The translations under genes and the position numbers were made by a program. From contig RBNJ01000351.1 of assembly GCA_003990765.1 (NCBI GenBank), positions 1-32,383 of the forward strand: a stretch of DNA of 32,383 nt. Reading direction: 5' to 3'. Below the pieces are notes generated by a model that did no database searches, was not told the origin of the DNA, and saw only the letters and a program-made list of their open reading frames with translations. Positions 866 to 32,147 of this stretch are shown here, one piece after another (within the stretch, counting starts at the first letter, position 1; every line of letters begins with the position of its first letter). The DNA is from Jimgerdemannia flammicorona. Lineage: Eukaryota.

Positions 866-1304
866 ACTCTCCTCTTCTTAGCTCTCAACATCCTTGTCAG
901 GGCCTTCTAATTTATTCTAGTATTGTTATACCATTTGGAAGGTCAAAAGTTCAGTAAAGTCTATTTTTTTTAGAAAGTAGCATGCTCATAGTACAGTTGC
1001 CTAATACATTGGATTCATACATTAAAGGGTTATGTATTCAATACCATGTGCCGGAAGTGATTCTGATATCATTCACTGCTGGAGAATTTCCTCTAAGGAA
1101 TTTTCTTAAATGTCTATACCTCATTTCCCACCAATGGTATGAAGAGAATAGGCTTGCTTTCAGTTTTGTTATTTTTCTAGAGGGTCAGTATTCTTTTTGT
1201 CTTGACTTTGCTGAGTTCTTGATTTTTGTTCATGGTAATTATAATGTTCGGGAGGATAATGTATAGTATATACTAATAGGTACTAGGTAGTCAGTTTCAG
1301 TTGT

Positions 1305-1470
1305 TCAAGAAATCATATTTCTGAACTAAGTTAATGACATTCTGGAGATTAGTCTTGGGTTCCCATATTATATTATAGATCAGGTAATCTTTCCATTTGA
1401 TAAGGTACTCAGGGTAGTTCTTGTGGCCATATTTATTGAGGATTTGTTCAACTTCATATTCTTCTTAATC
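1305..1470 (-). pseudogene. Chromodomain at the integrase C-terminus of element A
   Basis: EEYEVEQILNKYGHKNYPEYLIKWKDYLIYNIIWEPKTNLQN fits the chromodomain pattern EYEVE.IL...YL.KWKGY...TWEP..NL. Confidence 0.9.
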
Positions 1471-2186: not shown

Positions 2187-3030
2187 TGGGGACTACAGAT
2201 GTGGAGATGAGACAGGCTACTGCTGGGCAGTGCTTTGGTGGAGAACTTCTAGAATAGAGTATATATAGGGTATAGGGGGAGACATATGGCTGAAAACTTG
2301 GTAGAGGGTGGGGATTAGCAAGGAGTGGGACTGGAATGGTCTTTGGCCTTAGAGCAAGCAGGTGATATAGTGGCTTCCCCTCAAGTTCTGGATAGTATGG
2401 TAGTGGTTTCTAAGGCAGAATATGATATTGAACTTTCGGTCAGGGTACTTGGTGGTGGATGGCACATTTGAGTATGAGAAATATTTGGATGTTAGACAAG
2501 AAGAGAGAGTGGTACAAATGTCTAAACATTGGCTTAGAGAGTGTGATGTCTTAAGGAAGTTTTGGTACCACATTGCAAACTAGTTAGATCTGCAAGCCCT
2601 GGTGGGAGGAGAAGGGGGGAGATAGAGAGAGCTCTGCTAAAGGCTAGTGGGAGGGGTTGGAGATGAATGGCTGACCCTGAGTTGGGCTCTGGCAATTTGG
2701 GTTAGGCTAACCAGGTATTGGCTATATGTATTTAAGGAGGGCTGGCAAGTTGGGGTTGGAACTAGGGTAGCATATTGAGAATGGCTATTACTGGACATTT
2801 TGAATGGCTGATGGAGAGGGTGGGGACCAGGTGAGAGAAGCTACTAGAGTTTGGTAAATTGTATTTATCAGAAAAGTAGAGAGAGGATTCAGATAGTGGG
2901 TGACTGGGTTATCCTCTGACAGAGAGAGATAGAGGGTGGCAAGAGAGATCCAAGGGATATCAGTTGAGGAGATACAGGTGATATTATATTATTATTATAG
3001 ATTGAGATAATAAAGGAAAGTCCAAGTAAC

Positions 3031-3104
<74 letters not shown>
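2187..3104 (+). mobile_element. 5'-truncated L1-type LINE (3' ~0.85 kb plus poly(A) 3034-3104)
   Basis: gatgtggagatgagacaggctactgctgggcagt matches ~30507 onward in the full LINE. It ends in agtccaagtaactat(A)71, like the other two copies. Confidence 0.85.
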
Positions 3105-3110
<6 letters not shown>

Positions 3111-5070
3111 TAGTAGACTAGATAGAAGGTTGATCTTTCTAGACCAGGAGAAGGTCTATGATCAGGTGAGACAAGTCTGACTAGAGAAGATACTGAATAG
3201 ATTAAGTCTTCTTTAGTATTTCTAAGTTTTGATAATTAGTCTATTAGAGAGTAGCAAGATAGTATTTATATATAATAGATACTATGGTTTGGCTTTTCCT
3301 TTGGAGAAAAGGGTGTCTCAGAGAGATCTGTTATCTCTGATTCTATATGCTCTATTGTTGGAGCCATTGATAGACCAAATTCAGCATATAGTGGCTGAGC
3401 TCTCAATCTATAGAATAGTTTAAAAGATTAGAGCATTTGCTGATAATATAATAGTTGGCCTTGGCTCTGTCTCAGATATTAGAGTATTATAAGAAACTAT
3501 AGAATAGTATAAAAGACACTCTGGAGTAAAGCTCAACTAGTATAAGTGTGAGACAATAGTATTAGAAAATAGTTTAGTAAGAGGGGATATTATTGAAACA
3601 ATTATTCCTATAGGAGAGACTGTGCAATATTTGAGTATTTTCCTTTCAGTATATAGATCTGTTTTACTGAAAATCTAAAGGAAGAAAAAGGTGATCACTA
3701 CTGCTACAAAAGGTTTGAGAGATGAGATTTTCTTCCAAAGGCTCTTCAGAGGATCTGATGTCATTAATAAGACTAGATAATAGCTGGTACTTATGGTTTT
3801 AGGACTTCTGATAGGAGATAGTGAAAGGTACTCATCATATTGGGCTATATTAGTATAGTAGTGAGGAGAAAATCAATTGGAGTTCTAGAATATAGCAATG
3901 AGATCAACTTCTGTTGAGTGGTTTACTGCTGGTAGACTTTAATCTCAGTGCTAGAGTAGAGTGCCAGCAAGAGATAGGCCAGAACTAGAGATTCCAGATA
4001 GCTGGCCATATGGCTAATAGCTGGTCAGAGTGGCTTGGTCTTAAATTTACAGTCAACTGGCCAAGTATCTTAGTCTTATATTTAGTCTAACTAGCTAGCC
4101 AATCTATAAATTTAAGGCTAAGCTATTCTGTCTTAGTCTTAAATTTACAGCCAACTGGTCAAGTGGCATTTACAGATCTTATATTTAATTTGGAAAATTT
4201 GGAAATCAAAATAACAAATAAGACCTAGCCACTTGACTAACTAGCCAATCTATAAATTTAAGACTGAGCCACCCTGGTCAGCCATTGGCTATATAGCCAG
4301 CCATCTGGGATCTCTAGCCAGGACCTATGGTCAGTGAGATAGCAGATGGCTGGAATTAATAAAGTGTAGGACTGAGTGAGTTTCTGGACCTGGAGTATAG
4401 AGGTAAGAGATAGCTTCCTCCAAAGTTCTGAATAGTGTAATGGTATTTATTATAGAGGAATATCATGCTGAACTTTAGATCAAGATACTTAGTAGTGGAT
4501 GGTATCTTTGATTATGAAGAGTACTTGAATATAGAGTAAGAGGGGGGGTTTGTATAGATATCTGAATATTAGCTGAGTGAGTGTGAGATTTTTAGAAACT
4601 TCTGGATTGTAATCAGAAATTACCTAGAGGTAGTGAGAGGAGCAGTTGGTGTGCAGGATCAGTAGGAGGATTTGCAGGTATATCTGATAAGTTGTATTGA
4701 AGATAAGTGTCTTACTGTTAGGTGGGTCTTAGCAGTATAGATAAGGCTAGCAAGATATTGATTATATATATTTGAGGAGAGTATGAAGTTGAGCTTGAAG
4801 AAGTATCTATTGCAATAGAAAGGATTGATGGGAGATGTTTTGTCTAGCTGATAGGCAGATTGGAATCCTTAGAGGGATCATTACTATCAACTAATAGAGG
4901 AGATTTATAAGAAGAGTAGAGAGAGGGTTATAGTAGTTAATAGTATAATAGCCTTTAATTGTGAAGAGATAGGAGGAGGTCCCCCTAAGGATATTGGGTA
5001 GGGTTGGGGCTTTTTGTATTATATATAGATTAGATTGGCTTAGTAATATATATATAGGAGTCTAAGTAAC

Positions 5071-5134
<64 letters not shown>
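3105..5134 (+). mobile_element. 5'-truncated, internally deleted L1-type LINE (RT relic, 3' end, poly(A) 5074-5134)
   Basis: FLDQEKVYD, RVSQRDLLSLILYALLLEPL, AFAD, SGVKLN*YKCE and QYLSI parallel 29430-29950. It ends in agtctaagtaactat(A)61 and is interrupted by a MITE. Confidence 0.9.
3986..4316. mobile_element. hAT-type MITE, family 1 (331 bp, long inverted repeats)
   Basis: Termini tagagattccagatagctgg / ccagccatctgggatctcta are inverted. The 8-bp TSD is gccagaac (3978-3985) / gccaggac (4317-4324). The matching empty site gccaggat is present in the LINE near 30595. Confidence 0.88.
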
Positions 5135-5136
<2 letters not shown>

Positions 5137-6149
5137 CTCTAGTACTAATTTGAGTCCCATAGATAACCTGGCTCTATACTATAGCACTATAACAACAGTA
5201 CCACAAAGCAGAACTAAGGAGTCAGTAGAGTTTAGTAAAAAGCTAAAAACTGAAAACTAATACTATAAATAAAAAGAGATATCTAGCTACCTAATCCTTA
5301 CAAAAGACTGTCTAACTTATACAAAAGGCCACCTATTTACAAAACTGCTCCACCTGCTGATCTCAGGCCTTGATGAGCCTATTATCTATTATAAGTATAA
5401 TAACTATAATATCTGAGCTCTTCTTGAAAGCAATAGTACCAAAGAGGTCATATAGTTGGAATAGGACAATTATATTGATTGCAAATAAGACTCCAAAACT
5501 ATAGATGAGGTTATACTAAATATTGCTACTATTTTTTCAAGTTGGGTCCTTCCTTTCTAAAATGTAAAATATTATTAGAGTGATATTGTTGTCTATATAT
5601 ATGAGTAGAGAAATATTATACCCAATATATCCTAATATAATATAAGTATATAGTTAGGTGAACTCTTGGCCCAGAACCTCATATTGTCAGACAGTACTAA
5701 AGAATACCTGCTCTTCATCCAGCCCTGAGAGCTCTAGCTTAAAAATCTACTAAAATAGATAGTATCTAATTAAATCTTTCTTTTTTATATACAGAGACAG
5801 AAATCCTCAGACTATACCAAAAAAAAAAAAGTCAAGCTCCTCACCTCATACAGTATGCTAAATTATATTAAGAATATATATATAGTAACACTGAGAGTAC
5901 TACTAAGCTGGTCTGCTATTTAGTCTAGCAATCTTCTCAAAGAACCCTAGATCATGACTGCCATTACTATATAGGCTATATCATACTCACATACAGTTTG
6001 TTCTTTGACAGTACTTTTAAAGTTCCAATAAGAGTACAGAATTCTATATATCTCTGAAAATTTAATAAGAATAGATTAGTAAAGAAAATCTTGAAAAAAG
6101 AAGACAAATGTGAAAAAAAAACTCTAGAGAACTCACCTTTGCTAATATT

Positions 6150-10187: not shown

Positions 10188-10645
10188 TGTGATAGTACAG
10201 CTAAATATGGAAGAAGGAAATAGGGAATAGACACTTGATCACACCCAGTCCCAAAGTAGTATAGCCATATAGTTAGCAGTCGCCAATTCCGACATTGTCT
10301 AAATTTCTAGACATTATTCAAATCGAACACCCTGATTTAGTATAGTATTTAGACATTGTCCAAATATTTTGACAAAGTCCAAATGACTCATTTATTACTT
10401 AGCCACCCTCTCATAGCTAGCAAACTTGTATAAATAACCCAGTATCTTTGAGTGAATAAACCTCAGATCGAAATAGTTCAAAGCAAAGAGATAGCAAAGG
10501 AACTAGTAAGCCTATGGGCAGATACACTTCGAACTCACCCACCCTTCCCTACAACTTCAAGAGACTCTGCGAGAGTCAGAACAGTCAAGTTTTCAAGATA
10601 CAGAAATCTGATGTACTTTCAAGAGTAAGCGTCTGCTACATTACA
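10188..10645 (+). repeat. E1 5' LTR
   Basis: Termini are tgtga...ttaca. It is colinear with 16427-16884, with tataaata at 10429 and aataaa at 10455. Confidence 0.97.
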
Positions 10646-10648
10646 ACT

Positions 10649-10665
10649 TGGTGCCCATTGACTGG
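10649..10665 (+). promoter_or_regulatory. E1 primer-binding site (non-Met tRNA ending ...GGGCACCA)
   Basis: tggtgcccattgactgg starts after a 3-nt act spacer following the LTR end. Confidence 0.8.
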
Positions 10666-10759
10666 TGATTTAAGATGAATCCCTCACTTTCAAGCTGAAT
10701 AACAAACAACTGCCACTACCTGAACAACCATACAAATCGAGCTCCAATACCCAGACAAG

Positions 10760-13700
10760 ATGGATATGAGACTGCCAGTATTCCACGAATATACCTCAGA
10801 TGAATCAATCATCACCTTCATTGATGATTTCGAGCAGTATGCTGCTGTAAGAACTCTGACAGCAGCACAGCAAGTAGCTCTCATGCCCTTCAGCCTATGA
10901 GGCCCTGCCAGAGCAGCATTCACAGCTGTAACCCATGCAGGAAATGATGCTGATGCTATACTGACAGCACAGAAGACCTGGCTCCGAAATATATATTACA
11001 CAGATGAGATCAAGCAAGCCCTGAAGAATTAGCTCAACACAACATGCCAAGGAATGAGCGAGGATCCAAACACATTCTATACCAGAATTCAATATCAGAT
11101 AATCCTTGCAGATTATGCTGCTGCTATCCGAGATCAAGTAGCCAAAGCAACCTTCATGAAAGGAGTCCATCCAGAAATAGCCATGGCCATCCGCTCATCA
11201 CCAGTAATTCTGGATCTGCCATAGAAGGTCACCTATGCTCAGCAATACTGGATAGCCAGATACCCACAAGACCATATAATGGAGAGAGTTACAGGAGTCA
11301 GAATCGAGGCACCCAAGACAACTAGTGTAATCCCCACCACAATGATCAATCGAAACACATCTCAGCCAAAAGCTACAGAGCAGCAAAAGAACAGTGACCC
11401 TATGGAGGAACTTACCAAAAGGTTTGCTGAGATGACTGCCCACCTGGGAGATATGGTAAAGGAAATCTGAGGAAGAGATTGCCGCCTTGTTCAGAAGTTT
11501 GCCGCCACCTCAGACAAAAAGAAAGGTACCTGCTACAGCTGTGGAGAAGAAGGCCACTACTCCTATGAATGTATGAGTGAAACCAAATGCAAGGCTCAAC
11601 CAAGCAATGCCACACAAAACAAGGAGCAGGCCAATACAATCACCTTTGAAGAAATTGGAGAATCCAATGAAGAGGAATGGGAGGCCTATCCTGCTCAGAC
11701 TACCAAGAAGGATGCTCGCAAAGAACCCTACAAGAGACCACCAAGAAGACCCAAGAAGAACCCAGTGGAAAAGTGGATGGAAACTGTCACAGAAAGTCAA
11801 GCCAAAGAGATGGACCAAGATATTGAGCTGGAGCAAGCAGTTCAAGATATCATCCGAGGAACCACTCCAGCCAGTGAAGGAGAAAAAGAAAAGAAGCTTT
11901 GCAAGATCAAGACCTTCAAGTATGATATCTTCAAGGATCTCAGTCAACAAAAGGTCAATGCAACCTTTGGTCAGCTCACAGAAATCCCAACATTCAGACA
12001 GCAAATGAGGTTTGGACTTGCCGAAACAACCAAGAAACAAGGATGGAAGATAACTGAGACCAATAATGTTCAAGAGGACTCAGGAGAAGAAAGTGAGAAC
12101 AATCGCAAAACCTCTGCTTATACAACATACCAAATCGAAGATAGAACCTTTGAAGCTATCATTGATATGGGAGCAGGAGGATGTCTCCTCAGTAAGAAGG
12201 CAGCAGACCGCCTAGGTTGGGATGTGGAAGAAGCAACTAAGTTAGTATTCGTCACAGCTGATGGCACAAGAGCCACACCTCTGGGAAAGATCTGAGATGT
12301 TCCCATCAAGATTGGAGGAGCAACAATCCCAGTAGACATAATCGTAACCAATGCCACCAACTATGACATCCTCATCAGCAATCAATGGCTTCACAAAGCC
12401 AAGGCGGTAATCAATCTCAATGCTCAGAAGATGCAGATCACCTACCGGGGACAGAAGATACAAATTTCCATCAATACCAACAAAGGAGTCCTGCCTGATA
12501 TGGAGGAAGAAGAGAGTAAGCAAGAGGAAGCTTATATGGTAACTACTCCAAAGAAGAAGAAAGTTGGATGGATGAGTGAAGAAGAATGGTGCAAGAAGAT
12601 TGCAGAAGGTTATGCCCTACAAGGAGTCTGTCCTCATGGAATCAAGATGTACTGTATGGAGCATGTCAATGATTGCTACCAGTGCACCATCGGAACCAAG
12701 AAGATCTATCAGGAAAGAAGGCAGAAAGCTCTCGAAAAACAGATCAGGGAAGAAGAGAAGGAGGAAGACGACAAACCACCAGCCCTCCTGGAGGACAGTG
12801 ATGATAAAGAAGAAATCAAGGTCAAGATTTGAAAGATCCACCCTGATGCAGTCTTGCCAGAATACAAGTCAGAAAACGCAGTCAGAATGAACATCACTAC
12901 AGTAGAAGAAACTGTACTTGAACCCCAGACAACCACCCTACTTGCAACTGGACTAGAGATGACCATCCCAAAGGATCATGTCGGGATTCTCAAGACAAGA
13001 AGCAGCCTGGCTAGAAGCAAAATCACAATCGAAGGAGGAGTCATTGATTTAGACTATACTGGAGAAATTCTACTCATTGCTAGAAATCACAATTCTACAA
13101 TTCCATTCCCAGTCAAGAAGAAGGACTGATTGGCACAGATGTTGATCTTTCCAATCATACAACCAAGGATCATAGAAGTCAAGAATCTGGAGGAAATGAA
13201 AAGAGGAAAGAAAGGATTTGGATCCACAGGAAGAGGAGTATTCGCCAGCACCAAGATCACCAAACTCAAGCATAAGAAGGAGGAAAACATGAGCAAGCAC
13301 AGTTATACCATTGGAGACAAATTCCCACTCAAGGAGAAACTCAAGAAAATACTCCATGAATTCGAGGATGTCCTTGCCACGGATTTCAAGGATATCAAGA
13401 GAAAGACCCCACACTACTATCATGAGGTAGATACCAGAGACACCGAATCAATTTATCAGAAGGCAAGATCTGTCCCACCAGTCTACTAAGAATGGCTCAG
13501 AGAAGAAATCAAGCAGATGGAAGAAGCTGGAATCATCAAAGAAGCCAGCAGCCCCTGGTCTTTACCAGTTGTACTAGCCCCGAAAAAAGGAAGCAAACCT
13601 GGAGAATTTGCCTCAAGGCTCTGTGTTGACTACAGAAAGCTCAATGCAGTTATCAAGAAGGATTACCAACCACTGCCACTCATCAGTGACATCCTTATAA

Positions 13701-14752
13701 CACTGGGAGACGAAGTACAGTACTATAGTACCTTGGACTTATACTCAGGATTCCACCAAATTGGACTCACAGAAATGGCAAGTGAAAAGTCAGCCTTCAT
13801 CACCCCAGACAGAACCTACATCTACCTATGAATGCCATTTGGAATGTGCATTGCACCAGCAAGCTTTCAGCGAATGATGAACAAAATCTTCCGCTATGAT
13901 ATGGGAAGATGGATGATGGTCTATGTTGATGATGTAATCATCTACAGTAAGACACCTGAGGAACATCTGCAGCACATACAGCAGATAATAGAGAGACTAA
14001 GACAACATGGCCTTTATATCAAACCCAAGAAGTACAAGTTTGCAGAAATCAAGATCTCCTATCTTGGCCATATTATCAATTGAGATGGAACACATACAGA
14101 CCCCCTCAAAATACAAGCGGTAGCAGCGTACCCAAGGCCCACTACTGTTACAGAAGCCCAAGCCTTCATGAGACTTGTCTCCTACTATTGCAGATTTATT
14201 AGAGGATTCTCTAACATCACAGGTCCAATCTACGAACTCAACAAGAAGAATACCAAGTTCTAGTGGACTGGCAGACAACAAAAAGTATTTGATGAACTCA
14301 AGATCAGACTAACTCAGGCACCCATCCTCAGACGACCCAATTGGACCCAAGAATTTATCCTTCAGACAGATGCAAGTGTGCAGGGACTAGGAGCAGTCCT
14401 AGCTCAAAAAGAAGACAAAAAAGAGTATGTTATTACATACCTTAGCCGTGGAACCCAAGGGGCTGAAAAAGAATATGAGTCCTACAAGTTGGAATGCCTT
14501 GCAGTCATCTGGGCTGTGGAAAAGTTCCACTACTATCTGGCTGGAAGACACTTCATCATCCAGACGGACCACTCAGCTCTCACCTGGCTACTGACAACTG
14601 GACAACCCAAGGGAATCTATGCCAGATAGATAATAAAGTTACAAGCCTATGATGTAACCATCATACACCGCCCTGAAAGAACAAATTCCAATGCAGATAC
14701 TCTCTCACAGACACCTCAAACTACCTCCAACCAACAAATCAATCATGAATAA
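10760..14752 (+). pseudogene. gag-pol: E1 Gag-PR-dUTPase-RT-RNase H polyprotein (single frame, multiple premature stops)
   Basis: Motifs: MDMRLPVFHEY...FIDDFEQYA, zinc knuckle CYSCGEEGHYSYEC (11531-11572), protease AIIDMGA, RLCVDYRKLN, LDLYSGFHQI, MPFGM, YVDD, LQTDAS, TDHSAL, NADTLS. All track ORFs from 11279 to 14378 that carry these motifs share one frame, which ends at TAA 14750-14752. Confidence 0.95.
12815..13231 (+). pseudogene. dut: Trimeric dUTPase domain of E1 (between PR and RT)
   Basis: IHPDAVLPEY...TGLEMTIP...TRSSLA...GGVIDLDYTGEI...LAQMLI...RGKKGFGSTG gives motifs II-V clearly, with motif I decayed (AVRMN). Confidence 0.95.
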
Positions 14753-15938
14753 GGAGCTCTACTATGGAATTATCACATACCTGGGACAGTGAAAGATGCC
14801 CCAACATCTGGAAGAATGGACACAAATGATTATCAATAGGACATGGAAACAATTCGAAACTGATGGAGAAACACTGAAGAAAGGAAAACTACTGGTTATA
14901 CCAGAACACAAGAAGGAGCAAGCGATGAAATCAGTACATGAACTTGGCTATCTAGGAGGAATAAATACATATGACAAGGCAAGAAGAACAATATGGTGGC
15001 CAGAGATGGAGGAAGATATCAGACAATTTGTCAAGACATACAACAAATGCCAGAAACAAAAATAAGACCAATGGAATCAAGCCCCAGGATCAGCACACAT
15101 AGAACCAGTACCATTTGCCCATATAGCAATAGATGTAATCGGCCCTCTACCCTTGACTCTGACTGGTAACTGATATATCATTATCATCATAGACCTTTTT
15201 ACGAAGTGGATAGAAGCAGGACCTCTCAAGGAAGCCAATGCACAGTCAATTGCCGATTTCTTCTACAAGGAAATCATCTGCCGGTTCAAGACCCCAATAC
15301 AAGTAACTACAGATAGAGGAACAGAATTTGTGAACCAGCTCTTTGAGGTTCTCTATAAGAAGTACAAGATCCAGCACATTCAGACCACAGCCTATCACCT
15401 CCAAGAAAATGAACAAGTAGAAAGGACCAACAAAACTCTCAAGAATATTATCACCAAGATCTGTGATAACTACGAGAACTGGGATTACTATCTGCCAATA
15501 GTATTATCTGCTCTCCGGGATATTCAATCACAAAGCACCCACTTTACCCCTTGAGAAATGCTGTTTGGAGAAGAATGTTCTCAAGGAACCCTATCATCCA
15601 ATGGAGATACTGTATAGAAACATGTGGATATGGAAATACGGAGATTACACCAAATCAGAAAGAAGGCTGAGGATTACATAACCAAGGTGCAGACACTATA
15701 ATAGAGGAATGCAGAAAAGACCTACAAGCTCTTGGAGATTATCAAGATAGGAGACAAGGTCCTAGTATATTGGAATATGGTAGAAGCTTCATAATCATGA
15801 AAACTGGAGCCCAAGTGGGAAGAACCTTATCTTGTGCAAGATATAAAAGAGACCACCTTTTGGCTATAAAAACCCTCAGGCACAATAATCTCCACTACCA
15901 TTCACCGAAACTGACTCAAGAAATATTATGGCCAGTAA
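14745..15938 (+). pseudogene. E1 integrase in its own reading frame
   Basis: Motifs: MNKELYYGIITYL, VHELGYLG...WWPEM...YNKCQ (decayed HHCC), IDVIGPLP, TTDRGTEF, QVERTN, KLEPKWEEPYLV (GPY), IHRN*LKKYYGQ*. Confidence 0.93.
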
Positions 15939-16404
15939 CAAAAGTACTACAATGGCACTCAAGATTACTAATGCTGCCCAAAGAGCCATCGAAAGACAAT
16001 GGCACACCACCAAGCCTCCGACCATAGAGGCATACTATGAGAATATTCAGAGTATTGTGCAGACTCATCTCTCTCAGATCTCACACTTTAGAGCCTATCA
16101 ATATCAGGCAGAATTCCAAGAGTACTTCAAGCTTAGACAGGTGCTCAATCAGGATCCAGCAAAGACCAAAGAGGACTAGATTGCCAAGTGTCAACTCTCC
16201 CACTCACAAATCACTATCGCCAAAAGGATCCACAAGTTATTCCAAGAAGATGAACCAGTGATAGACTACCTGAGAGGAGTAATCCCCACCAACTTCGAGA
16301 AAGTGAGGAGACATCATTGGGAAATAGTCATATAGCAAATTACACAATATAAGACCATATAGATGGTTGAAGCCTGGGAGTTTGAATAGATGCCTCAGAG
16401 ATGA
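15928..16404 (+). pseudogene. E1 extra ORF3 of unknown function (3' end uncertain)
   Basis: The ATG overlaps the integrase stop. There are 83 open codons, and the frame then continues (IAKRIHKLFQEDEPVIDYLRGVIPTNFEKVRRHHWEIV) up to the PPT with only TAG stops. Confidence 0.7.
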
Positions 16405-16416
16405 GACCATCTATTC

Positions 16417-16425
16417 AGGAGGAAG
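16417..16425 (+). promoter_or_regulatory. E1 polypurine tract
   Basis: aggaggaag lies immediately before the 3' LTR. Confidence 0.8.
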
Positions 16426-16426
16426 T

Positions 16427-16884
16427 TGTGATAGTACAGCCAAATTTGGAAGAAGGAAATAGGGAATAGACACTTGATCGCACCCAGTCCCAAAGTAGTA
16501 TAGCTGTATAGTTAGCAGTCACCAATTCCAACATTGTCTAAATTTCTAGACATTATCCAAATCAAACACCCTGATTTAGTATAGCATTTAGACATTGTCC
16601 AAATATTTTGACAAAGTCCAAATAACTCATTTATTACTTAGCCACCCTCTCATAGCTAGTAAACTTGTATAAATAACCCAGTATCTTTGAGTGAATAAAC
16701 CTCAGATCGAAATAGTTCAAAGCAAAGGGATAGCAAAGGAACTAGTAAGCCTGCAGGCAGATACACTTCGAACTCATCCACCCTCCCCTACAACTTCAAG
16801 AGACTCTGTGAGAGTCAGAACAGTCAAGTTTTCAAGATACAGAAATCTGACGTACTTTCAAGAGTAAGCGTCTGCTACGTTATA
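16427..16884 (+). repeat. E1 3' LTR
   Basis: Termini are tgtga...ttata (terminal CA decayed to TA). It has about 22 substitutions and no indels versus the 5' LTR. Confidence 0.97.
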
Positions 16885-19258: not shown

Positions 19259-20761
19259 TATAAGAGAGTTACTTTTTAGGATAATCATTATGTAGTTCTG
19301 GAAGGGTTTTCTGGAAGTTCTGGATATTCTGAAAGACCATTTTCTTATGGTCAAGATCAATTTCATATAGAGTATATTCTCTATGCTTATTGATTTCAAG
19401 ATCAGATTAATGTCTCAACCAAAGTCCTTTTTCGGACTAGTTCTGGATGTTCAGGATTTTCCATATTTCAGAGAGTTCAAGAAACTAAGACCAGCTTAGT
19501 TGAGTTGGCATATTACTGCAGATAATACCTAATTAGGAAATTTCGTAATGGGGTTAAGAGTGGGACCTAATGGGGAGCAGATTTACTTAAGAGTAGTTTA
19601 TAGGTTATTAAATAGATTTATTCGCTATTCATGATATTACTATATTAGGAGTAGTTGTGTGAAGGGATATTGTGAGAAAGTGTTCAGGAATGTTCTTGTA
19701 TGTTTGAGTCTATTCAAGTCTGAGATTCTGAGGTCTGGGAGAGGGGGTATTTATACTAGTGAGGGGCTATCTGAACTATACTGTATATGGATGTAGCACT
19801 AAGTGCCTTACTGAGTTGGAATGTAGTCATATAGTACAAGTATGATCTGATATATCAAGAGATTGTCTGACTGCTAAGTCAGTTCACAGTTATATCATAC
19901 AAGGCTAATCTAACTATACTATGACTGCTAAACTATTTATAGATTTAGATGCTGTCTGGTTAGTCTTTGATGACATCACTATTGATGACATCATCACTAG
20001 TGAAGTCTGAGCAGTTTTCTGACTTCTGATATCATCAGTTTCAAAGGTATTGTTACTTCTATCTCTTGTAAAATTATGACTATCCTTAGTGGTGGTGGTT
20101 GTATAAGGATAACAGGTCTTGGTTCTCTTTTTTTTTTGGTCTGCTAGTGCATTTGTGAGGACTGGCTATTCTCATCTAGGGCAAGGGCTCCCAATGTCAC
20201 AGCTGGGAGTTCAAACCTCTTGGAAATGATATTTTCTATAATCTAAGGCAATTTCTAATAGTAATATCTGTCATATAGATGGCTTGAGATTGGTTTCGAT
20301 GATGTTAGCTTTCTTGAGTTCAGATGAAGCATCCATCACTCTCTAATAGAGGTGATACAGATAGAGCGAATGGAGTTGTTTAAATGTATTTTACTTCTAC
20401 TAAGTAATGAGGTCTTGTATAGTTGCAGTGTATCCTGATCTTGAGTTGATAAGTATAGTTCGTGAACCTTTTGATGGATGAGATAGGGCTCTTCTTATCT
20501 CGATTTGAGTTTGGTACTTTTGGTTTCCTTTTGTAATAGTACAGTATACCAAACTAGTTATAGCAATTCAGAGTTAGTCTTATAGTTATAGTACTTCTTC
20601 TAGTATTCTTGTATCTTGGCAGTGGGTTCTTGTGCTTGCTGACATATTTTGTGTAACCAGATGATCTCTTCAGTAACTTGTTTTATAGTCTTGCATGTGG
20701 TTTCCAAATTAGTTTTGAGGATACTATGCAATTTTGGTGGCTTAGAGGTTGTATGCTTACA
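19259..20761 (-). repeat. E2 3' LTR (1503 bp)
   Basis: Termini are tataag (decayed tgtaag)...cttaca. A TATA box (tataaata on minus) is at 19748-19755 and the PPT aaaaaggggagag is at 20763-20775. Confidence 0.95.
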
Positions 20762-20819: not shown

Positions 20820-22235
20820 TGTTGTACCATTTGGATGGTTCTTGTGGCTGTATTTGTTGAGGATTTGTTCAACTTTGTATTCTTCTTGATCATTAATAAT
20901 GACAGGTACAGGTGGTTCTGTGGTTCGGTTCAGAAATGTGTCTCAGACCTTCTGGAGTAGTGGTCTGACATGGCTGTTAACTTTAGAAAAGTCTTCTTCA
21001 GAGTTCTCAGATTCTCCTTTAGATGGGCAGATGGAGATGGTGAAGAGAGGGCATTTCTTAGCCAATTTCTTGAGTTGTAGTTTGTTGATATAGGTGATCT
21101 TTGGTCTAGGGTCACTAGAGTTGAGTGAGTCCTTTTCACCTTGCAGTTTGAAGTTATGGCATCCTTTCTTGATGGTTAGAGAATGGTTTACCCAATCGAT
21201 CATAGAGTTCTCTTATTTTAATCATAGAGTCCCAAGGATGATTTCATTATCAGAGAGTGGTATGATCTGGAGGGTAACATGTACTTGGTAGTCACCAATT
21301 TGGAAAGGTAGATTGTGAACTTTCTTGCTAATAATATGGGAGATTCCATCAGCTGTGGTGACTGCTTAGGTTTGTTGTATCAGAGAGGTGAAGACCTTGA
21401 GTCTGTTGGCTGTTTCTTCATTGATGAAGTTACCTGAGACACCACTGTCTATCATAATCTTGACAGGTGCTCGATTGACAAAAGCTTTAAGTGTAAGCAG
21501 TTTGTCTGATCCAATAGTGGTGATTTCAGTTGTAGGAGCTTTCCTTCTATTGGTTCTTCTTTGAGCCAGTTTGTTGACACAAGAGAAGCAATCATCAATC
21601 ATTCAGGAAGAGTACATTTCAATACCATAGAGGCATTGGCCACTTGGTACATATCTGTCTTCAATTTTCTTGTAGAATTATTCTTCTTTGTTCATAGTAG
21701 GTTGGGCTGGGGCCTTGTTTGATGAGCCAAATCCTTTGGATTCTTGGATAGTGGGCAGTAGTTTAGGGACTTCCTTGACTGTTAGAGTTGACTCAATTTT
21801 TTTGAATAGAATCTGGGCAATGCAGAAACCAATGGAGATCTTGAAGGATGTCCAACTATGATTTCAGATGAGGATAATAATTTTGTCTGTGTAATTCTCA
21901 TCAATGACTCCTCCTTCTACTGAGAGTTCTTTCAATGCTAGGCTGCTGCAACAGCATATTCTTCCAATATGTCCTTTAGGAATTTGGATACTGATTCCTG
22001 TATAGACTTGCTTGATTTCTTGATTGGAAACTGTAGCTTCTTCAGCTGCATACAGATTATATCCAGCTGCTTTTTGACTTCCTTTGGTTGGGGCCTTAGC
22101 AGTTTGCCTTAACTTGACAAAGTCTAGTATTCTGGTAGTCAGGTTATTAAGGTGGTGCAGAGTAGTAACAGTTACTAAGGTTTTCAGTTGGGGCAGGTAC
22201 TGGCCATATGTCCTGTCTTTTGGCAATAGAAGCAT
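20820..22235 (-). pseudogene. E2 truncated pol: dUTPase - Cys/His module - aspartic protease - chromodomain stub
   Basis: dUTPase (~21720-22127): KAAGYNLY...TGISIQIP...SSLA...GGVIDENYTDKI...IAQIL...KGFGSS. Protease: IMIDSGVSGNFI...IILG. Then EEYKVEQILNK. It lies in the -1 frame relative to gag. Confidence 0.92.
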
Positions 22236-23179
22236 GCTCTGCTTCTTTGAAGTTCATTCCTTTTGCCTTCAGTGAGTTTCTTGAAGGTACTCAGCTGGGT
22301 GGGTTTGTGATTTCTGGGTGTCCATGAGGTGGATGTGGAGGGAGCTTGGGATGCTACATACTTGGGTTCTTCTTTCTTGGTCCAAGTCTTTTCCTTATTA
22401 TTGAATTGTCTTTGAGGCAGAATTGGTCCAGCTATTAGGATTTGCTTAACTATGGTCTTGATTCTTGCCAGGCACCATTGTTGGTGATTGCAACCAATTG
22501 GGCAGCCTTGTTCTCAGATTTTTCTAGTAAGCCATTTAGGTAGTACATCGAATAGATGGTCTGCTCTTGTACTATTTCATGCTTCATCATTGGCAATATA
22601 TCCTAGGCCAATAGTGTTCAGGAGTGACTTGAGTTTTGTACAGAAGGTTTCAAATTCTTCTTTGCCATATACATCAAATTTGAGGTTGTAGAGTTTTACT
22701 GGAGATTCAGTGATCATCATTTCACTGTAGTATTGAGCAATCATGAGTTGTTTGAGTCCAGGGACTGCAGGATGGACTCCATATCCTAGGGCATTGTTTG
22801 CTGCATTCTGAGCAACTACTGCAGGTCAGGTATCCCATATGAGGAGTTTTTTAGGAAGAGTTTACCACCATTCTTCAGCAGGTCCTTGGAAGAATATAAT
22901 AACTCGGCAGACATAGGCTGTGGTAGTAGCAAAGAGTTGTTCCAGAGTATGGTCTTGATTGTTTGTCAGAATGCGGTCAGCAACTCACTCATTTGTCCAT
23001 TGATTGGCTTCAAAGTTGGTATCAACTATACTAATGAAGCTTTGGACTTCTTGTACAGTACCATTGAAGGTAGGTAGGCTCAGATTTTTGGTAGATTAGG
23101 TCTGTTCAGCTAAGGCAGTAATGATTGCTGCCATTATGGCTACCTGGGCTGTGAGGTCTAGAATCTGTTGGTTTGCCAT
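22175..23179 (-). pseudogene. gag: E2 Gag
   Basis: MANQQILDL...LPTFNGT...FQGPAEEWW...CFYCQKTGHMASTC (zinc knuckle ~22193-22234), all in one frame with scattered stops. Confidence 0.9.
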
Positions 23180-24140: not shown

Positions 24141-25620
24141 TGTAAGAGGGTTGCTTTTTAGAGTAACTGTTACATAGTTCTGGATATTCTAGAAGACTGT
24201 TTTCTTATGGTCAAGATCAATTTTATATGAAGTATATCCTCTATGCTTATTGATTTCAAGATCAGGTTAACATCTCAACCAAAGTTCTTTTTCAGACTAG
24301 TTCTGGATGTTCAGGATTTTCCATATTTCAGAGAGTTTAAGAAACTAAGACCAGCTTAGTTGAGTTGGCATATCACTGCAGACAATACTCAATTAGGAAA
24401 TTTTGTAACAGGGTTAGGAGTGAGATCTAACAGGGAGCAGATTTACTTAAGAGTAGTTTGTGGGTTATTAAATAGATTTATTCGCTATTCATGATATTAC
24501 TATACTAGAAGTAGTTGTGTGAAGGGATATTGTGGGGAAGTGTTCAGAAATGTTCTTGTGTGTTCGAGTCTGTTCAAGTCTGAGATTCTGAGATCTAGGA
24601 GAGGGGGTATTTATACTAGTGAGGGGCTATCTGGACTATGTTGTATATAGATATAGCACTAAGTACCTTATTGAGTTAGAATATAGTCACATAGTACAAG
24701 TATGATCTGATATATCAAGAGATTGTCTGACTGCTGAGTTAGTTCACAGTCATGTCATATAAGGCTAATCTAACTATACTATAACTGCTAAGCTATTTAT
24801 AGATTTAGGTGCTGTCTGGTTAGTCTTTAATGACATCACTATTGATGACATCATTGCTGGTAAAGTCTGAGCAGTTTTCTGACTTCTAATATCATCAGTT
24901 TTAAAGGTGTTATTATTTCTATCTCTTGCAAAATTATAACTGTCCTTGGTAGTGGTGGTTGTATAAGAATAACAGGTCTTGGTTCTCTTTTTTTTTTGGT
25001 CTGCTGGTGCATTTACGAGGACTGACCATTCTCGTCTAGGGCAAGGGCTCCCAATGTCATAGCTGGGGGTTCGAACCTCTCAGAAATGATATTTTCTATA
25101 ATCCAAGGCAATTTCTAGTAGTAATATCTGTCATGTAGATAGCTTGAGATTAGTTTCAACAATGTCGGCTTTCTTGAGTTCAGATGAAGTATCTGTTACT
25201 CTCCAACAGAGGTGACACAGATAGAGCGAATGAAGTTATTCAAATGTGTTTTACTTCTGCTAAGTAATGAGGTCTTGTATAGTTACAGTGTATCCTGATC
25301 TTGAGTTGATAAGTGTAGTTCATGAACCTTTTGATGGGTGAGATAGGTTTCTTCTTATCTCAATTTGATTTTGGTACTTTTAGTTTCCTTTTGTAATAGT
25401 ACAGTATACCGAACTAATTATAGCAGTTCAGAGTCAGTTTTATGGTTGTAGTACTTCTTCTAGTATTCTTATATCTTGGCAGTGGGTTCTTGTGCTTGCT
25501 GGTATATTTTGTGTAATCAGATGATCTCTTCAGTAACTTGTTTTGTAGTCTTGCATTGGTTTCCAAATTAGTTTTGAGGATACCATGTGATTTTAGTGGC
25601 TTGAAGGTTATGTGCTTACA
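24141..25620 (-). repeat. E2 5' LTR (1480 bp)
   Basis: Termini are tgtaag...cttaca. It is colinear with 19259-20761 apart from a 22-bp and a 1-bp indel and many transitions. Confidence 0.95.
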
Positions 25621-27636: not shown

Positions 27637-30600
27637 ATGAATAGTACAACTAACATTTTTTCTTTAAACATGAATAGGTTACAGGGCACTGCTAGATATA
27701 GGAACATTTTTACTTGGATGAAAAGATTGGAGACTGATCTCTTCCTCTTGCAGAATGTCAGGTGTGAGGATAATTCTGATAGGATAAAATAGATAAAGGA
27801 ATGGGGAGGTGTGGTGATCTGGAAGGGTAAGGTCAGGATTCTGGTTCAAAAAGATAAGGGACATGAGAAGCTGGGGGGAGAGACTGGTCTGGGGCAAGTA
27901 GATTTGCACAGGCTGAGAGCCAGTTACTGTTGGCTCCTATTACTGTTCTGCTATATAGGGTGAGCATGTAGATTGGGTGAAAGGTCTCCAGGAGAGTGGG
28001 ATTCTTGCAGAGACTGAGGTGGATATGCTTGGAGGAGATTTCAATATGGTTTGGGATATACAAATGGATAGAACAGATGGAGGATGGGGTGCTGAGAGCA
28101 GGAGTGGAGGGCTGGTGGTATGAGAGGAAGTAGAAAGACTAAGTGTACTAGTAGATACTGGTAGAGAGTACTGGGGGGAAAGAAGGGTTTATATGCATTG
28201 GGCAGGGGGCCTGGGGACAAGAATTGACTAGATTCTGACAGCCAGTTGCTGGGGCCTAGATATTTGGAAGTTGCTGAAGGTAGAATAGTGTCCATGGTTG
28301 GATCACTGGGGGCTTTTGAGACAGGTGTGCTTTGGGGGAAGTAGAGATGGGCCTGAACATTGGTGCCTACATTCCTCTTTGTTAGATGATAAACCCCAGT
28401 GAGATGAGTGGGCTAAAGACATTCAGCTAAGGGTGGAGAACTGGTGGCAAGAAGGTGTCTCAGTTGGGGTTTGGTGGATGAGGATGAAGGAGATGACCAA
28501 GATTTACTAGGGTGAGGTTGGCAAGGAGACAGAGAAGCAGAGAAGGTGAAGAGTGTATTGGGCTTCTACTAGATTGGCAAGGCTCCTAGAGGAGTGAGTA
28601 AGGCTGATAATGTTGGAGAGAGAAGAAGATTGGAGATTAATGAGAGCAAAGATGGAGATTGGGGAACTACAACAGGTGCTGTGGGAAGAGAAAGAGGCAA
28701 GAGTACAAAGCTTGGTGGCACAGCTTCATTGACAGGATCTGAAGGAAGGGGAGAGACCTTCCAAGTTTCTTATGAGGGCCCTTAGAGCAAGAAGAGTACA
28801 GCAATAGTGGGAAGAGGTACTTGACTCAGATGGTGTACTAGTACATGGTATATAGGATATTCTTAGATCATTGAAGGAGTGATGGAGTAGATTGTGGAGT
28901 GAGGAGGAGGGTGGGATGGATGCTACTGCTATTGACTGAACATTGGAGGATTGGCACTCACCATAAGTAGAGAGACTTGGTGATCTGATGATGCCTGTAC
29001 AGGAGGATGTGATCTACTAGGTTCTTGCCATGACAACTCCAGGTACAGCACTTGGGGAGGATGGTCTGCCCTGGGACTTCTGAAAGCAGATGGTTGAAGT
29101 CCTGGGTGTGATGGGAGAGATGACAGCATTGTGTAACTTATCTTACAAACAGGAAGATGGGTGGGGGAGCAGGATCTCGGGCTAGTGATACTACTTTATA
29201 AGAACAAAGGAAGGCATGAGGATTGGAAGAACTGGCAACTGATAATGTTGTTAGATATGGACAGAAAGTTGGTGACTAAGGTGGTGGTTGCAAGACTACA
29301 GAAGGTAGTCCAGCAAGTCATGGGTGTTGAACAGAGGGGATTTGTGAGTGGTTGGCTCATTAGGGATGGCACAGCCTAGATACATAGAGTTATTAAAGGG
29401 GCAAGAGCCTGTAGACTGGATGGATATCTAGTCTTCTTAGACCAGGAGAAGGCTTATGACTGGGTACAACAAGTCTGGCTGGTAAAGGTATTGGATAGAA
29501 CTGGAGTTCTATACCAATTCCAGTCAGCAATAATCAGCCTACTGGAAGGGAGTAGAGCTGCACTCATGTATAATGGATATAGAAGGGTAGCATTCCCCTT
29601 GGGTAGAGGGGTGCCCCAGGGGGACCCACTGTCTCCCATTTTGTATACTCTCTCCCTGGAACCCCTAATGGACAGAATTAGATAGAAGATAGTGGGGCTC
29701 TCTGTCTTTGATATTGGGTGAAAAGTTGGGGCCTTTGCAGATGATATAGTGGTTGGTTTGGGATCAATTGCTGATGTCAAGAAGCTCAAAAAGACAGTGG
29801 AGTGGTATGAGGAGAACTCTGGGGCTAAGCTGAATTGGCACAAGTGTGAAATGATAGTGCTAGGCAATGATCTAGTGGGAGGAAAGGTTATAGGAACAAT
29901 TGTCCCCACTGGTGAGACAGTACAGTACTTGGGCATCTATTTGTCAGTCTATGGGTCAGTTCTGCCCAGGCTTTGGTGGAAGCAGAGGATTGAAATCTGG
30001 GAGGAGGTCCTGCAGGATTGCAGAGGAAGGCACTTTTCTCTAGTAGGGTGGGTCTTGATTTTGAATGTCTATTGGCTGCCGAAGTTATGGTATCTGGCTT
30101 ATCATCTGGACTTCTCAGCCTGGGTGGTGAAGAGATTGATGAAGTTGGCAAAGAGATAGATTTGGGCTGGCAGACGGAGTCAGATTGGTTGGAAGACCTT
30201 ATTCTTACTGGTGGCAAGAGGTAGTTTTGGGCTGGTTGACTTTTCAAAATGGCTATACTGCTTAAGAGCATGGTGGCTAAAGAGAGCAGTGGAGTTGAGA
30301 GGAGATGGTTGGATTTCCTTACTACAAAATATCTAGGAGAGACAGTTATTGCTAAGAGGCTTGACTGGCAATCTCCTCTCATTGGTTGGACTTCAAAGCA
30401 CTGAACAACTATGATATAAAGGATTTTGGTGTGGGATAGCAGAGGGGGTGTACTGTATTGGAATTTATTGGCAGGGGAATGAAGAGGAGATGGCTTGGGA
30501 CTCAATGATGTGGAGATGGGATCATATACTGCTGGGCAGTACCTCTTTAATTGAGTTTGACATTGGTGATGGAATGGAATGCCAAAGGAGACCAGGCCAG

Positions 30601-31277: not shown

Positions 31278-31339
31278 TAGTGGGTGGTAATAATATATAC
31301 TTATTCATAGACTGGTAATAAAGATAGAGTCTAAGTGAC

Positions 31340-31417
<78 letters not shown>

Positions 31418-32147
31418 CCTTTCTAATGATATTAAGAATATTAAAATCAGATTACACATTGTTAAGCTATTAAGGAAAATGTTTCTTTGAAAAAATTTTC
31501 AAAATTGGTAAGTCAAATAATTTCTAAAATTGGTGAGTTAGATGTTTTCCTTAATAACTCAGCAATATATAATTTAATTTCAATATACTTGATATTATTA
31601 GAAAGGCCTTATTAAGGGCTTTTAAATAATATTAAGATTATCAAAATTTGATAATTATTTATTAAGTTATTGATATAAATATTTTATTATCTAATTTGAA
31701 AATCAAAATAATAGTTGATTTGAATCAATTCAGATAGAATTCAAATTCCATTTAAGTTAATCTGGATGAGATTCAAATCTAATCTAGATTAACTTATTCA
31801 GAGTACTATTTATAAACTTAAGTAATAAGGTATTAGAAATCTCCTCTTATCTTATATAAGTTCTCTACTTATCTTATTAGAGAGAACTAGATCCTATTTA
31901 CTATTCTGTACTTTGAAGGAAGTTTTTTTTTACCTATTGCTCTACTTGAGATAGTAGGAGCTATTCTATTTGACTTGGATATAGTCTTATATATATTATA
32001 GATTCAATATATATCTTTAATTATTGATATATGATTACTTTCTCTCTAATAATAGAGAGAGTATAATATATAGAATAAGATATAGATTACTATAAGCCCT
32101 ACTATATTTGATATGGTTAAGTTGCTAGATAATAACTAATCTACGCT

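What the first reader, a model, noticed from the sequence alone, without database searches (positions are those of the whole stretch)
12572..12685. Unrecognised ~38-aa Cys/His module between protease and dUTPase, shared by two distinct Ty3/Gypsy lineages with opposite domain order
Seen: E1 reads WCKKIAEGYALQGVCPHGIKMYCMEHVNDCYQC. E2 (21579-21695, minus) reads FYKKIEDRYVPSGQCLYGIEMYSS*MIDDCFSC. The two align without gaps, and several differences are single transitions (Y<C, R<G, L<P, Y<H), giving a consensus KKIxxGYxPxGxCPHGIxMYx4(V/I)(N/D)DC(Y/F)xC. E1 is PR-module-dUTPase, while E2 is dUTPase-module-PR, and the two elements differ in LTR, PBS, Gag and integrase type. Inference: this is a CHCC zinc-binding module that travels with dUTPase-bearing retrotransposons, perhaps binding nucleic acid or controlling processing. 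It is not the Gag CCHC knuckle, which both elements have elsewhere. I cannot confirm novelty without a search.
Basis: partly seen in the sequence, partly recalled or inferred. Interest (0 to 1): 0.82.

Follow-up and report, generated by a model that had tools for sequence, protein, structure and literature searches.

The report
Conserved Cys/His domain beside retrotransposon dUTPase
Two decayed Ty3/Gypsy retrotransposons carry a small conserved Cys-His-Cys-Cys domain, probably zinc-binding, between their protease and dUTPase, and it matches no described domain family that I could search.

Summary
Both peptides lie at the stated coordinates. They align without gaps over the core, at tblastn E 1.1e-6 within the window.

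- **Domain order.** Pfam confirms E1 as Gag-PR-module-dUTPase-RT-RH-IN and E2 as Gag-dUTPase-module-PR.
- **Relatives.** Database searches found 18 more proteins and one metagenome locus with the module, in both orders. One is an intact E2-family copy, P0157, which reads CPHG...DCFSC where E2 is mutated.
- **Conservation.** In 19 full modules the pattern is C-x-H-x(10-12)-C-x2-C. The counts are C 19/19, H 17/19, C 17/19 and C 18/19.
- **Link to dUTPase.** All 14 of 14 hits of a module-only profile also carry a dUTPase. At least one PR-dUTPase-RT element, P0127, lacks the module.
- **Known families.** No Pfam family, PDB sequence or solved fold matched.
- **Structure.** AlphaFold2 gives a helix, a hairpin knuckle and further helices, set between disordered linkers.

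Zinc binding and function are inferred, not shown. My best reading is a zinc-knuckle-like accessory of the dUTPase, comparable to the NC-dUTPase fusion of betaretroviruses. I file it as a new variant of a known kind, of moderate interest.

The parts
10188..10643 (+). E1 5' LTR
   Evidence: 456-bp direct repeat, 95.4% identical to 16427-16882
11525..11575 (+). E1 Gag zinc knuckle (CCHC)
   Evidence: PF00098 at residues 19-35 of ORF 11471-12292, 25.4 bits against a cut-off of 20.8
12125..12442 (+). E1 aspartic protease, broken by one in-frame stop at 12293-12295
   Evidence: PF13650 at residues 220-273 of ORF 11471-12292. PF08284 at residues 2-49 of ORF 12296-12829
12572..12721 (+). E1 Cys/His module. 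The putative ligand codons are C 12629-12631, H 12635-12637, C 12674-12676 and C 12683-12685. A basic helix follows.
   Evidence: Sequence. Aligned with 18 other modules. AlphaFold2 model with pLDDT 76. No Pfam or PDB match
12776..12829 (+). Acidic linker motif PPALLEDSDDKEEIKVKI between module and dUTPase, shared by E1-type relatives
   Evidence: Seen by eye in P0001, P0002, and P0004 and P0005
12833..13231 (+). E1 dUTPase, with in-frame stops at 12830-12832 and 13127-13129
   Evidence: PF00692 at 51.5 bits on ORF 12833-13126 and 17.1 bits on ORF 13130-13486
13490..15551 (+). E1 RT, RNase H and integrase (H2C2 and core), with further in-frame stops
   Evidence: PF00078, PF17919/PF17917, PF17921 and PF00665. 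ORF coordinates
16427..16882 (+). E1 3' LTR
22187..22240 (-). E2 Gag zinc knuckle (CCHC)
   Evidence: PF00098 at residues 92-109 of ORF 22187-22513, 25.1 bits
21720..22100 (-). E2 dUTPase, with one in-frame stop
   Evidence: PF00692 at 59.7 bits on ORF 21867-22253 and 22.9 bits on ORF 21681-21863
21579..21695 (-). E2 Cys/His module, decayed. Stops lie at 21678-21680 and 21603-21605. Ligand positions are C 21633-21635, Y (was H) 21627-21629, C 21588-21590 and C 21579-21581.
21225..21512 (-). E2 aspartic protease (decayed)
   Evidence: PF13975, PF13650 and PF08284 on ORF 21369-21602, all below their curated cut-offs. Co-linear with the protease of P0157, which passes the cut-offs
19316..20761 (-). 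E2 3' LTR plus the 3' end of pol, repeated at 24176-25620
   Evidence: 1446-bp direct repeat at 90.7% identity. The chromodomain of a sister copy at 1300-1464 (-) matches PF00385 at 35.3 bits

Best explanation
The peptide is a small (about 45-50 aa) domain that folds on its own and belongs to the Pol polyprotein of dUTPase-bearing Ty3/Gypsy retrotransposons. Its core is W/F-Y-K-x-I-x-D/E-G-Y-x-P-x-G-x-C-P-H-G-I/V-x-M-Y-x(4-6)-D/E-C-x2-C, followed by a basic helix.

I read it as one tetrahedral zinc site. C and H would sit in the turn of a beta-hairpin (a knuckle). The C-x2-C would sit at the start of the last helix, a treble-clef-like arrangement.

Flexible charged linkers tie it to the protease on one side and the dUTPase on the other. 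This holds in both gene orders: PR-module-dUTPase-RT and Gag-dUTPase-module-PR-RT.

The role I think most likely is an accessory of the dUTPase. After processing it would stay on the dUTPase. Through its zinc knuckle and basic helix it would hold the enzyme on the nucleic acid of the reverse-transcription complex inside the particle. The nucleocapsid part of the betaretroviral NC-dUTPase fusion is thought to act in this way.

Shown here: the existence of the module, its conservation, its position and its co-occurrence with dUTPase. Inferred: zinc binding, which mature protein carries the module, and nucleic-acid binding.
For: **Real and conserved.**
- E1 against E2: E 1.1e-6 within the window.
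- 16 further full modules, 2 partial ones and locus L001 were found.
- In 19 full modules: C29 19/19, H31 17/19, C44 17/19, C47 18/19, P30 16/19, G32 17/19, M35 17/19, Y36 17/19.
- Three of the five exceptions are in copies decayed by other evidence: E2win and L001 carry stop codons, and P0002 differs from the window copy at that residue.

**Selection.** Between the two gene orders the module is 27-55% identical, and the dUTPase domain of the same proteins is 29-45% identical. The RT core of E1 against P0157 is 46% identical over 41 aa.

**Fold.**
- The AlphaFold2 model of the E1 module has pLDDT 76. It gives helix 12-20, hairpin 27-28/34-35 with C29 and H31 in its turn, helix 38-43, and helix 45-58 starting at C44/C47.
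- The same pattern appears at 140-202 of P0080, between stretches of pLDDT under 50 (130-143 and 203-225). The pTM of 0.34 means no confident packing against dUTPase or protease.

**Tied to dUTPase rather than to the protease.**
- All 14 of 14 hits of the module-only profile carry PF00692.
- No module was seen without a dUTPase, although the protease is universal in these elements.

**Precedents.**
- MPMV makes a homotrimeric NC-dUTPase fusion whose NC domains bind oligonucleotide (abstract of PMC1802613).
- Bdelloid Juno elements have a dUTPase 'followed by an extra Zn knuckle' (passage of PMC5408684).
Against: - No metal-site geometry could be checked, because model coordinates are not given. 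The models were made without zinc and reach only pLDDT 76 and 71.
- The cleavage sites are unknown, so the module may end up on the protease or on neither protein.
- The module always also adjoins the protease. Where a dUTPase sits away from the protease (P0119, RNase H-dUTPase), no module was found. This fits a protease-linked role just as well.
- P0127 (PR-dUTPase-RT) has no module, so the dUTPase does not need it.
- The co-occurrence count rests on few, mostly short fragments. It comes from a word-indexed search that scored only 7999 candidates.
- The wide HMMER search was run by mistake with a profile that also held the dUTPase of P0002. It therefore says nothing about modules without dUTPase.
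Confidence: 0.4

Rival explanations
1. The module is a protease accessory. It stays on the protease (C-terminal in E1-type, N-terminal in E2-type) and controls its dimerisation, activation or substrate choice. The C-terminal G-patch of betaretroviral proteases (recalled, not from a call) is a small extra domain of this sort.
For: In all proteins that reach far enough, the module adjoins a protease. It comes after the protease in P0015, P0106 and E1, and before it in P0019, P0080, P0157 and E2. The RNase H-dUTPase protein P0119 has no module.
Against: The protease is present in all Ty3/Gypsy elements, yet the module-only search returned only dUTPase-bearing proteins, 14 of 14. The module changes sides relative to the protease. 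In E2-type elements it lies 12-36 aa from the dUTPase end and 44-68 aa from the protease DSG motif (counted by eye). The context model shows no packing on the protease (pTM 0.34).
Confidence: 0.2
2. The module is a structural insulator. It would be a rigid metal-stapled bead between two flexible linkers, and its only role would be to separate a trimeric dUTPase from a dimeric protease so that both can assemble within the polyprotein. It would have no ligand of its own.
For: It is always placed exactly between the two oligomeric enzymes, in either order. It is flanked by low-confidence linkers. That dUTPase is a trimer and the retroviral protease a dimer is established knowledge; the dUTPase trimer is also stated in the abstract of PMC1802613.
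Against: A spacer need not keep about 15 positions nearly invariant across 27-55% identical sequences. P0127 manages with a 46-aa linker and no module.
Confidence: 0.15
3. The module is a diverged member of an already described zinc-finger family, or was captured from a host gene, and my searches missed it.
For: There are weak sub-threshold Pfam hits to zinc-finger families: zf-C5HC2 at 16.9 bits against a cut-off of 22, and DUF4379 'treble clef' at 14.8 bits against 24.5. DUF1451 was matched by 2 of 12 members. Short zinc domains are hard to detect by sequence or by Foldseek.
Confidence: 0.12
4. It is a chance resemblance of two linker peptides with no function.
For: The peptides are short and lie in decayed elements.
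Against: E 1.1e-6 within the window. 18 further proteins and L001 share the motif at 27-55% identity across two gene orders.
Confidence: 0.02

Closest known systems
NC-dUTPase fusion protein (p30) of betaretroviruses such as Mason-Pfizer monkey virus
   Same: A zinc-knuckle nucleic-acid-binding part is joined by a flexible linker to a retroelement dUTPase (abstract of PMC1802613). The E2-type order Gag(CCHC)-dUTPase-...-PR is the same as the betaretroviral gag-pro order; that order is recalled.
   Different: There the knuckles are the Gag CCHC type and lie N-terminal of the dUTPase. Here the elements keep their own Gag CCHC knuckle and have an additional module of another pattern, C-x-H-x10-12-C-x2-C. 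It sits on whichever side of the dUTPase faces the protease. Whether the mature proteins stay fused is unknown.
Extra Zn knuckle after the dUTPase of bdelloid rotifer Juno LTR retrotransposons (Rodriguez et al. 2017, PMC5408684)
   Same: It is an additional zinc-knuckle-like motif next to a dUTPase placed between PR and RT (passage read).
   Different: I did not see the Juno sequences, so homology is untested. The hosts are animals, not the (probably fungal) elements here.
dUTPase-bearing Ty3/Gypsy elements of basidiomycetes (PosPlaTy3-3, -4 and -5 of Postia placenta; Phanerochaete chrysosporium elements; Novikova et al. 2010, PMC2864245)
   Same: The same two dUTPase positions occur: at the N-terminus of Pol, and between PR and RT. 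The authors suggest independent acquisition of the dUTPase (passages read).
   Different: The passages and the figure legend I read list only CCHC and HHCC zinc motifs and mention no module next to the dUTPase. The supplementary .DOC files and the 2008 Doklady paper could not be read, so an earlier mention cannot be excluded.
Retroviral Gag zinc knuckle, Pfam zf-CCHC (PF00098)
   Same: It is a small Cys/His metal-binding unit in a retroelement polyprotein.
   Different: The spacing is C-x2-C-x4-H-x4-C against C-x-H-x10-12-C-x2-C. Pfam finds zf-CCHC in the Gag of both elements but not in the module.

Membership tests
Ty3/Gypsy (Metaviridae) LTR retrotransposon | Two LTRs flanking Gag-PR-RT-RNase H-IN in that order | tested here: met
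   E1 has LTRs at 10188-10643 and 16427-16882 and the Pfam order CCHC, PR, dUTPase, RT, RNase H, IN. E2 has repeats, CCHC, dUTPase and PR, but no RT/RH/IN ORF was seen between 20603 and 21212. Its intact relative P0157 continues into RT.
dUTPase-bearing fungal Ty3/Gypsy elements (Novikova 2008, 2010) | A dUTPase domain inside Pol, either at its N-terminus or between PR and RT | tested here: met
   PF00692 lies after PR in E1 and before PR in E2. A fungal host is not shown: no genome is held, and small shares of the sequence occur in soil metagenomes.
Pfam zf-CCHC (PF00098) Gag knuckle | C-x2-C-x4-H-x4-C and a score at or above 20.8 bits | tested here: not met
   The module spacing is C-x-H-x10-12-C-x2-C. 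There was no zf-CCHC hit on the module at E <= 10 or E <= 1 in 12 members.
Pfam zf-C5HC2 (PF02928) | A score at or above the gathering cut-off of 22 bits | tested here: not met
   16.9 bits for the E1 module only, 1 of 12 members.
G-patch (extra domain of betaretroviral proteases) | A glycine-rich G-patch motif recognised by Pfam | tested here: not met
   No G-patch family appears among the Pfam hits of the module or its flanks.
Treble-clef zinc finger fold | Two ligands from a knuckle in a beta-hairpin and two from the first turn of a helix | tested here: inconclusive
No solved treble-clef chain matched. DUF4379 'treble clef' scored 14.8 bits, below its cut-off of 24.5.
Zinc-binding domain in general | Stoichiometric zinc bound by the four conserved residues | not testable with these tools
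   Only the conservation of C/H/C/C is available.
Zinc knuckle-dUTPase fusion (betaretroviral type) | The mature protein carries both the knuckle and the dUTPase, and binds nucleic acid | not testable with these tools
   The cleavage sites are unknown. Only the adjacency within the polyprotein is shown.

The most novel reading that the evidence does not exclude
The module is a zinc-finger fold not yet described. It has been placed twice, independently, in the one slot between protease and dUTPase. The reason would be that it physically couples the two enzymes' assembly, or delivers the dUTPase to the reverse-transcription complex. On this reading it is a mobile adaptor domain exchanged between unrelated Ty3/Gypsy lineages by recombination, separately from the dUTPase itself.
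Probability: 0.2. Interest if true: 0.6.

Novelty: new variant of a known kind. Interest (0 to 1): 0.45.

Why it matters
The role of retroelement dUTPases is still debated. Their position in fungal Ty3/Gypsy elements is known to vary and has been read as repeated capture.

A conserved, probably metal-binding domain that accompanies the dUTPase in both gene orders gives a concrete handle on three questions:
- How the enzyme is positioned or regulated inside the particle.
- Whether the dUTPase moved between lineages alone or as a cassette.
- How a trimeric and a dimeric enzyme coexist in one polyprotein.

In practice, a profile of this module would improve the annotation of a stretch of Pol that Pfam currently leaves blank.

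Tried and rejected
- **Whole-frame Pfam scans** failed because of stop codons. I used stop-free ORFs instead.
- **Own genome:** none is held.
- **First module search:** The search for homologous proteins on the E1 module region, longer proteins, found no candidate.
- **Wide HMMER search:** the profile used all 232 columns of alignment A1, so P0002's dUTPase dominated the 7640 hits. Only 13 of the 150 listed proteins hold the module. This search cannot test whether the module occurs without dUTPase.
- **ESM Atlas, twice:** best score 0.78 with unnamed clusters, then no usable hit.
- **Earlier findings of the scan:** nothing found by sequence, words or place.
- **PDB by sequence:** 0 hits for the single sequence and for the profile.
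- **Foldseek against PDB:** 0 matches at E <= 0.001.
- **Complex prediction**, two copies of the E1 module with two zinc ions: no verdict, score 0.00, and the alignment was not used. This counts neither for nor against self-association.
- **The look-up of sequencing runs:** small shares (0.06-0.17) in five soil-metagenome runs and one run of a coded organism. No RNA holder was listed and no reads were laid.
With the narrower A5, 3 loci were returned of 401 pattern matches. Only L001 is a true relative. L002 and L003 match only the words around GRCPHGIGM in what looks like non-coding high-GC DNA.
- **dUTPase tree** (148 rows, 138 columns, quick method). The six E1-type rows and five of the six E2-type rows fall on opposite sides of a branch with 96% SH-aLRT support. 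The AU test does not reject holding all 12 together (p 0.226). The origin of the dUTPase-module pairing therefore stays open. Eight dUTPase rows under 90 aa were left out of the tree, among them P0012, P0019, P0026 and P0153-P0157.
- **Literature:** five full-text searches found no description of this module. Novikova & Blinov 2008 and the .DOC supplements of PMC2864245 could not be read.
Full report
**Observation**

The window holds two decayed LTR retrotransposons.

E1 runs on the + strand from 10188 to 16882. Its LTRs are 456 bp long and 95.4% identical. From 11471 to 14626 its gag-pol reading frame is one frame interrupted only by seven single in-frame stop codons (ORF coordinates). Pfam gives the order Gag zinc knuckle, aspartic protease, an unassigned stretch, dUTPase, RT, RNase H, and integrase zinc-binding and core domains.

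E2 lies on the - strand between two copies of a 1446-bp repeat, 19316-20761 and 24176-25620, which are 90.7% identical. Pfam gives Gag zinc knuckle, dUTPase, an unassigned stretch, then protease. After the protease remnant the element runs into the remnant of a chromodomain. I saw no RT, RNase H or integrase ORF there. A sister copy of that 3' end at 1300-1464 (-) matches Pfam Chromo at 35.3 bits, so the E2 family is a chromovirus.

A tblastn of the E1 peptide against the window finds E2 at E 1.1e-6, with 38% identity over 47 columns. The next hit has E 0.39. There is no nucleotide-level match between the two elements.

**Relatives**

No whole genome is held for this window, so I used the protein collections.

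- The E1 dUTPase ORF found one 232-aa protein, P0002. It is 80% identical and carries the module upstream of the dUTPase.
- A profile search of 1.84 billion representatives was run with an alignment of E1, P0002 and E2 (read with X at its stops). By my mistake all 232 columns were used, so dUTPases dominated the 7640 hits.
- A local HMM of the module found it in 13 of the 150 listed proteins, two of them partial.
- A module-only alignment of 12 sequences (A2) was then searched against proteins longer than 107 aa. All 14 of 14 hits at E <= 0.01 carry Pfam dUTPase. Five of them were new, P0153-P0157.
- A scan of metagenome contigs added one decayed E2-family locus, L001, and two chance matches.

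In all there are 19 full modules, counting the two in the window.

- **PR-module-dUTPase:** E1, P0002, P0005, P0015 and P0106, plus the partial P0004 and P0009.
- **dUTPase-module(-PR):** E2, L001, P0008, P0010, P0012, P0019, P0026, P0031, P0080 and P0153-P0157.

P0157 is an intact member of the E2 family. It reads dUTPase...EEQFYKKIKDRYVPSGRCPHGIGMYSSRMIDDCFSC..., protease, RT. Where E2 has stop, Q, L, Y, E, stop, P0157 has Q, R, P, H, G, R. Each difference fits one C>T or G>A change in E2's codons (my inference).

**Conservation**

Across the 19 modules the pattern is C-x-H-x12-C-x2-C, with x10 in P0106.

| Position | Residue kept | Exceptions |
|---|---|---|
| C29 | 19/19 | none |
| H31 | 17/19 | Y in E2 and in P0019 |
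| C44 | 17/19 | Y in P0002, G in P0156 |
| C47 | 18/19 | Y in L001 |

Other nearly fixed positions are the W/F-Y pair, P25, P30, G32, I/V33, M35, Y36 and an acidic residue before C44. A further Cys after M-Y is present in only 8 of 19, so it is not part of the core.

Between the two gene orders the module is 27-55% identical. The dUTPase domains of the same proteins are 29-45% identical. The RT core of E1 against P0157 is 46% identical over 41 residues. The module is thus kept about as well as the catalytic domains, which argues for function.

**Comparison with known families**

- Pfam gives nothing at or above a cut-off for the module. zf-C5HC2 scores 16.9 bits (cut-off 22) for E1 only, and DUF4379 scores 14.8 bits (cut-off 24.5) for P0002.
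- No family is matched by more than 2 of 12 members.
- The Gag zf-CCHC knuckle is found elsewhere in both elements and has a different spacing.
- PDB sequences give no hit for the single sequence or the profile.
- Two Atlas look-ups gave nothing usable.

**Predicted structure**

- The AlphaFold2 model of the 59-aa E1 segment used 12 E2-type relatives as its alignment. Mean pLDDT is 76.
- It gives helix 12-20, a hairpin 27-28/34-35 whose turn holds C29 and H31, a short helix 38-43, and a long helix 45-58 that begins at C44/C47.
- A model of P0080 (dUTPase-module-protease, pLDDT 71, pTM 0.34) shows the same pattern at residues 140-202. It sits between stretches of pLDDT under 50.
- The two models share most of their alignment rows, so they are not independent.
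- The arrangement, a knuckle plus the start of a helix, is what a treble-clef-like zinc site looks like. I could not inspect coordinates.

**What it goes with**

- Every protein that holds the module and extends far enough also holds a dUTPase within 12-85 residues.
- The reverse is not true. P0127, a PR-dUTPase-RT polyprotein, has only a 46-aa linker. P0119, RNase H-dUTPase, has no module.
- The module always also adjoins the protease.
- The module was never seen without dUTPase, although all such elements have a protease. I therefore weight the dUTPase link more. The sample is small, however, and made mostly of short fragments.
- A tree of 148 dUTPase domains puts the E1-type rows and five of the six E2-type rows on opposite sides of a branch with 96% SH-aLRT support. 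An AU test does not reject holding all 12 together (p 0.226).
- So it stays open whether dUTPase and module moved as one cassette, for instance through a tandem-duplication intermediate that would allow either order, or whether the module moved alone.

**Mechanism**

My best reading (confidence about 0.4 for the whole chain) is a zinc-stapled mini-domain that remains attached to the dUTPase. With its basic C-terminal helix it would hold the enzyme on the nucleic acid of the reverse-transcription complex. Two precedents exist.

- The homotrimeric NC-dUTPase fusion of Mason-Pfizer monkey virus, whose NC domains bind oligonucleotide (abstract of PMC1802613).
- The 'extra Zn knuckle' after the dUTPase of bdelloid Juno elements (passage of PMC5408684).

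The rivals are a protease accessory (0.2), a passive insulator between a trimeric and a dimeric enzyme (0.15), a missed known family (0.12) and chance (0.02).

**Novelty**

The variable position of the dUTPase in basidiomycete Ty3/Gypsy elements is published (PMC2864245, passages read). The passages and figure legend I read name only CCHC and HHCC zinc motifs. Five full-text searches found no description of this module. The 2008 Doklady paper and the .DOC supplements could not be read. GyDB and Repbase could not be searched. I therefore file the module as a new variant of a known kind, namely an extra zinc-knuckle-like domain in a retroelement polyprotein, of moderate interest. It is a real, unannotated domain family with a clear experimental path, but not a new principle.

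Noticed in passing
window 12776-12829 (+): An acidic motif, PPALLEDSDDKEEIKVKI, lies between the module and the dUTPase. It is shared by the E1-type relatives P0002, P0004 and P0005. It may be a processing site or a phosphorylation patch.
   Followed up: no
window 21579-21695 (-) against P0157: All eight differences between the E2 module stretch and the intact relative fit single C>T or G>A changes. Two of them turn CGA codons into a stop or a Gln. E1's stops at 12830 and elsewhere look the same. This suggests decay by deamination at CpG or a RIP-like process.
   Followed up: partly
window 19316-20761 and 24176-25620; also 287-1511: The 1446-bp repeat covers the LTR plus the 3' end of pol with its chromodomain remnant. 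E2 is therefore part of a tandem LTR-internal-LTR-internal array. A third copy of this end lies at 287-1511. E2 itself has lost RT, RNase H and integrase.
   Followed up: partly
window 29137-30156 (+); 3001-3177, 5066-5257, 31335-31487: There are remnants of a non-LTR-type reverse transcriptase (PF00078 on three consecutive ORFs). Three long A runs read as poly-Lys ORFs, probably tails of LINE-like elements.
   Followed up: no
P0152: A dUTPase is followed by a different Cys-rich stretch (CSKNKANPLCSGCYYCCSDEDC). This may be another case of a metal-binding add-on to a dUTPase.
   Followed up: no
P0007, P0011, P0014, P0036, P0069 and others: Many of the best dUTPase hits carry three dUTPase domains in tandem in one chain.
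   Followed up: no
L002 about 3005-3120 and L003 about 2285-2400: Two unrelated high-GC metagenome contigs share a stretch that reads GRCPHGIGMVG...SSASPSTPVSE in one frame, amid stops. It is probably a conserved non-coding element and not a module relative.
   Followed up: no
P0010 and P0154 Gag region (columns 150-170): The Gag of two E2-type relatives holds a conserved C-P-H-x3-W-C motif upstream of the CCHC knuckle.
   Followed up: no
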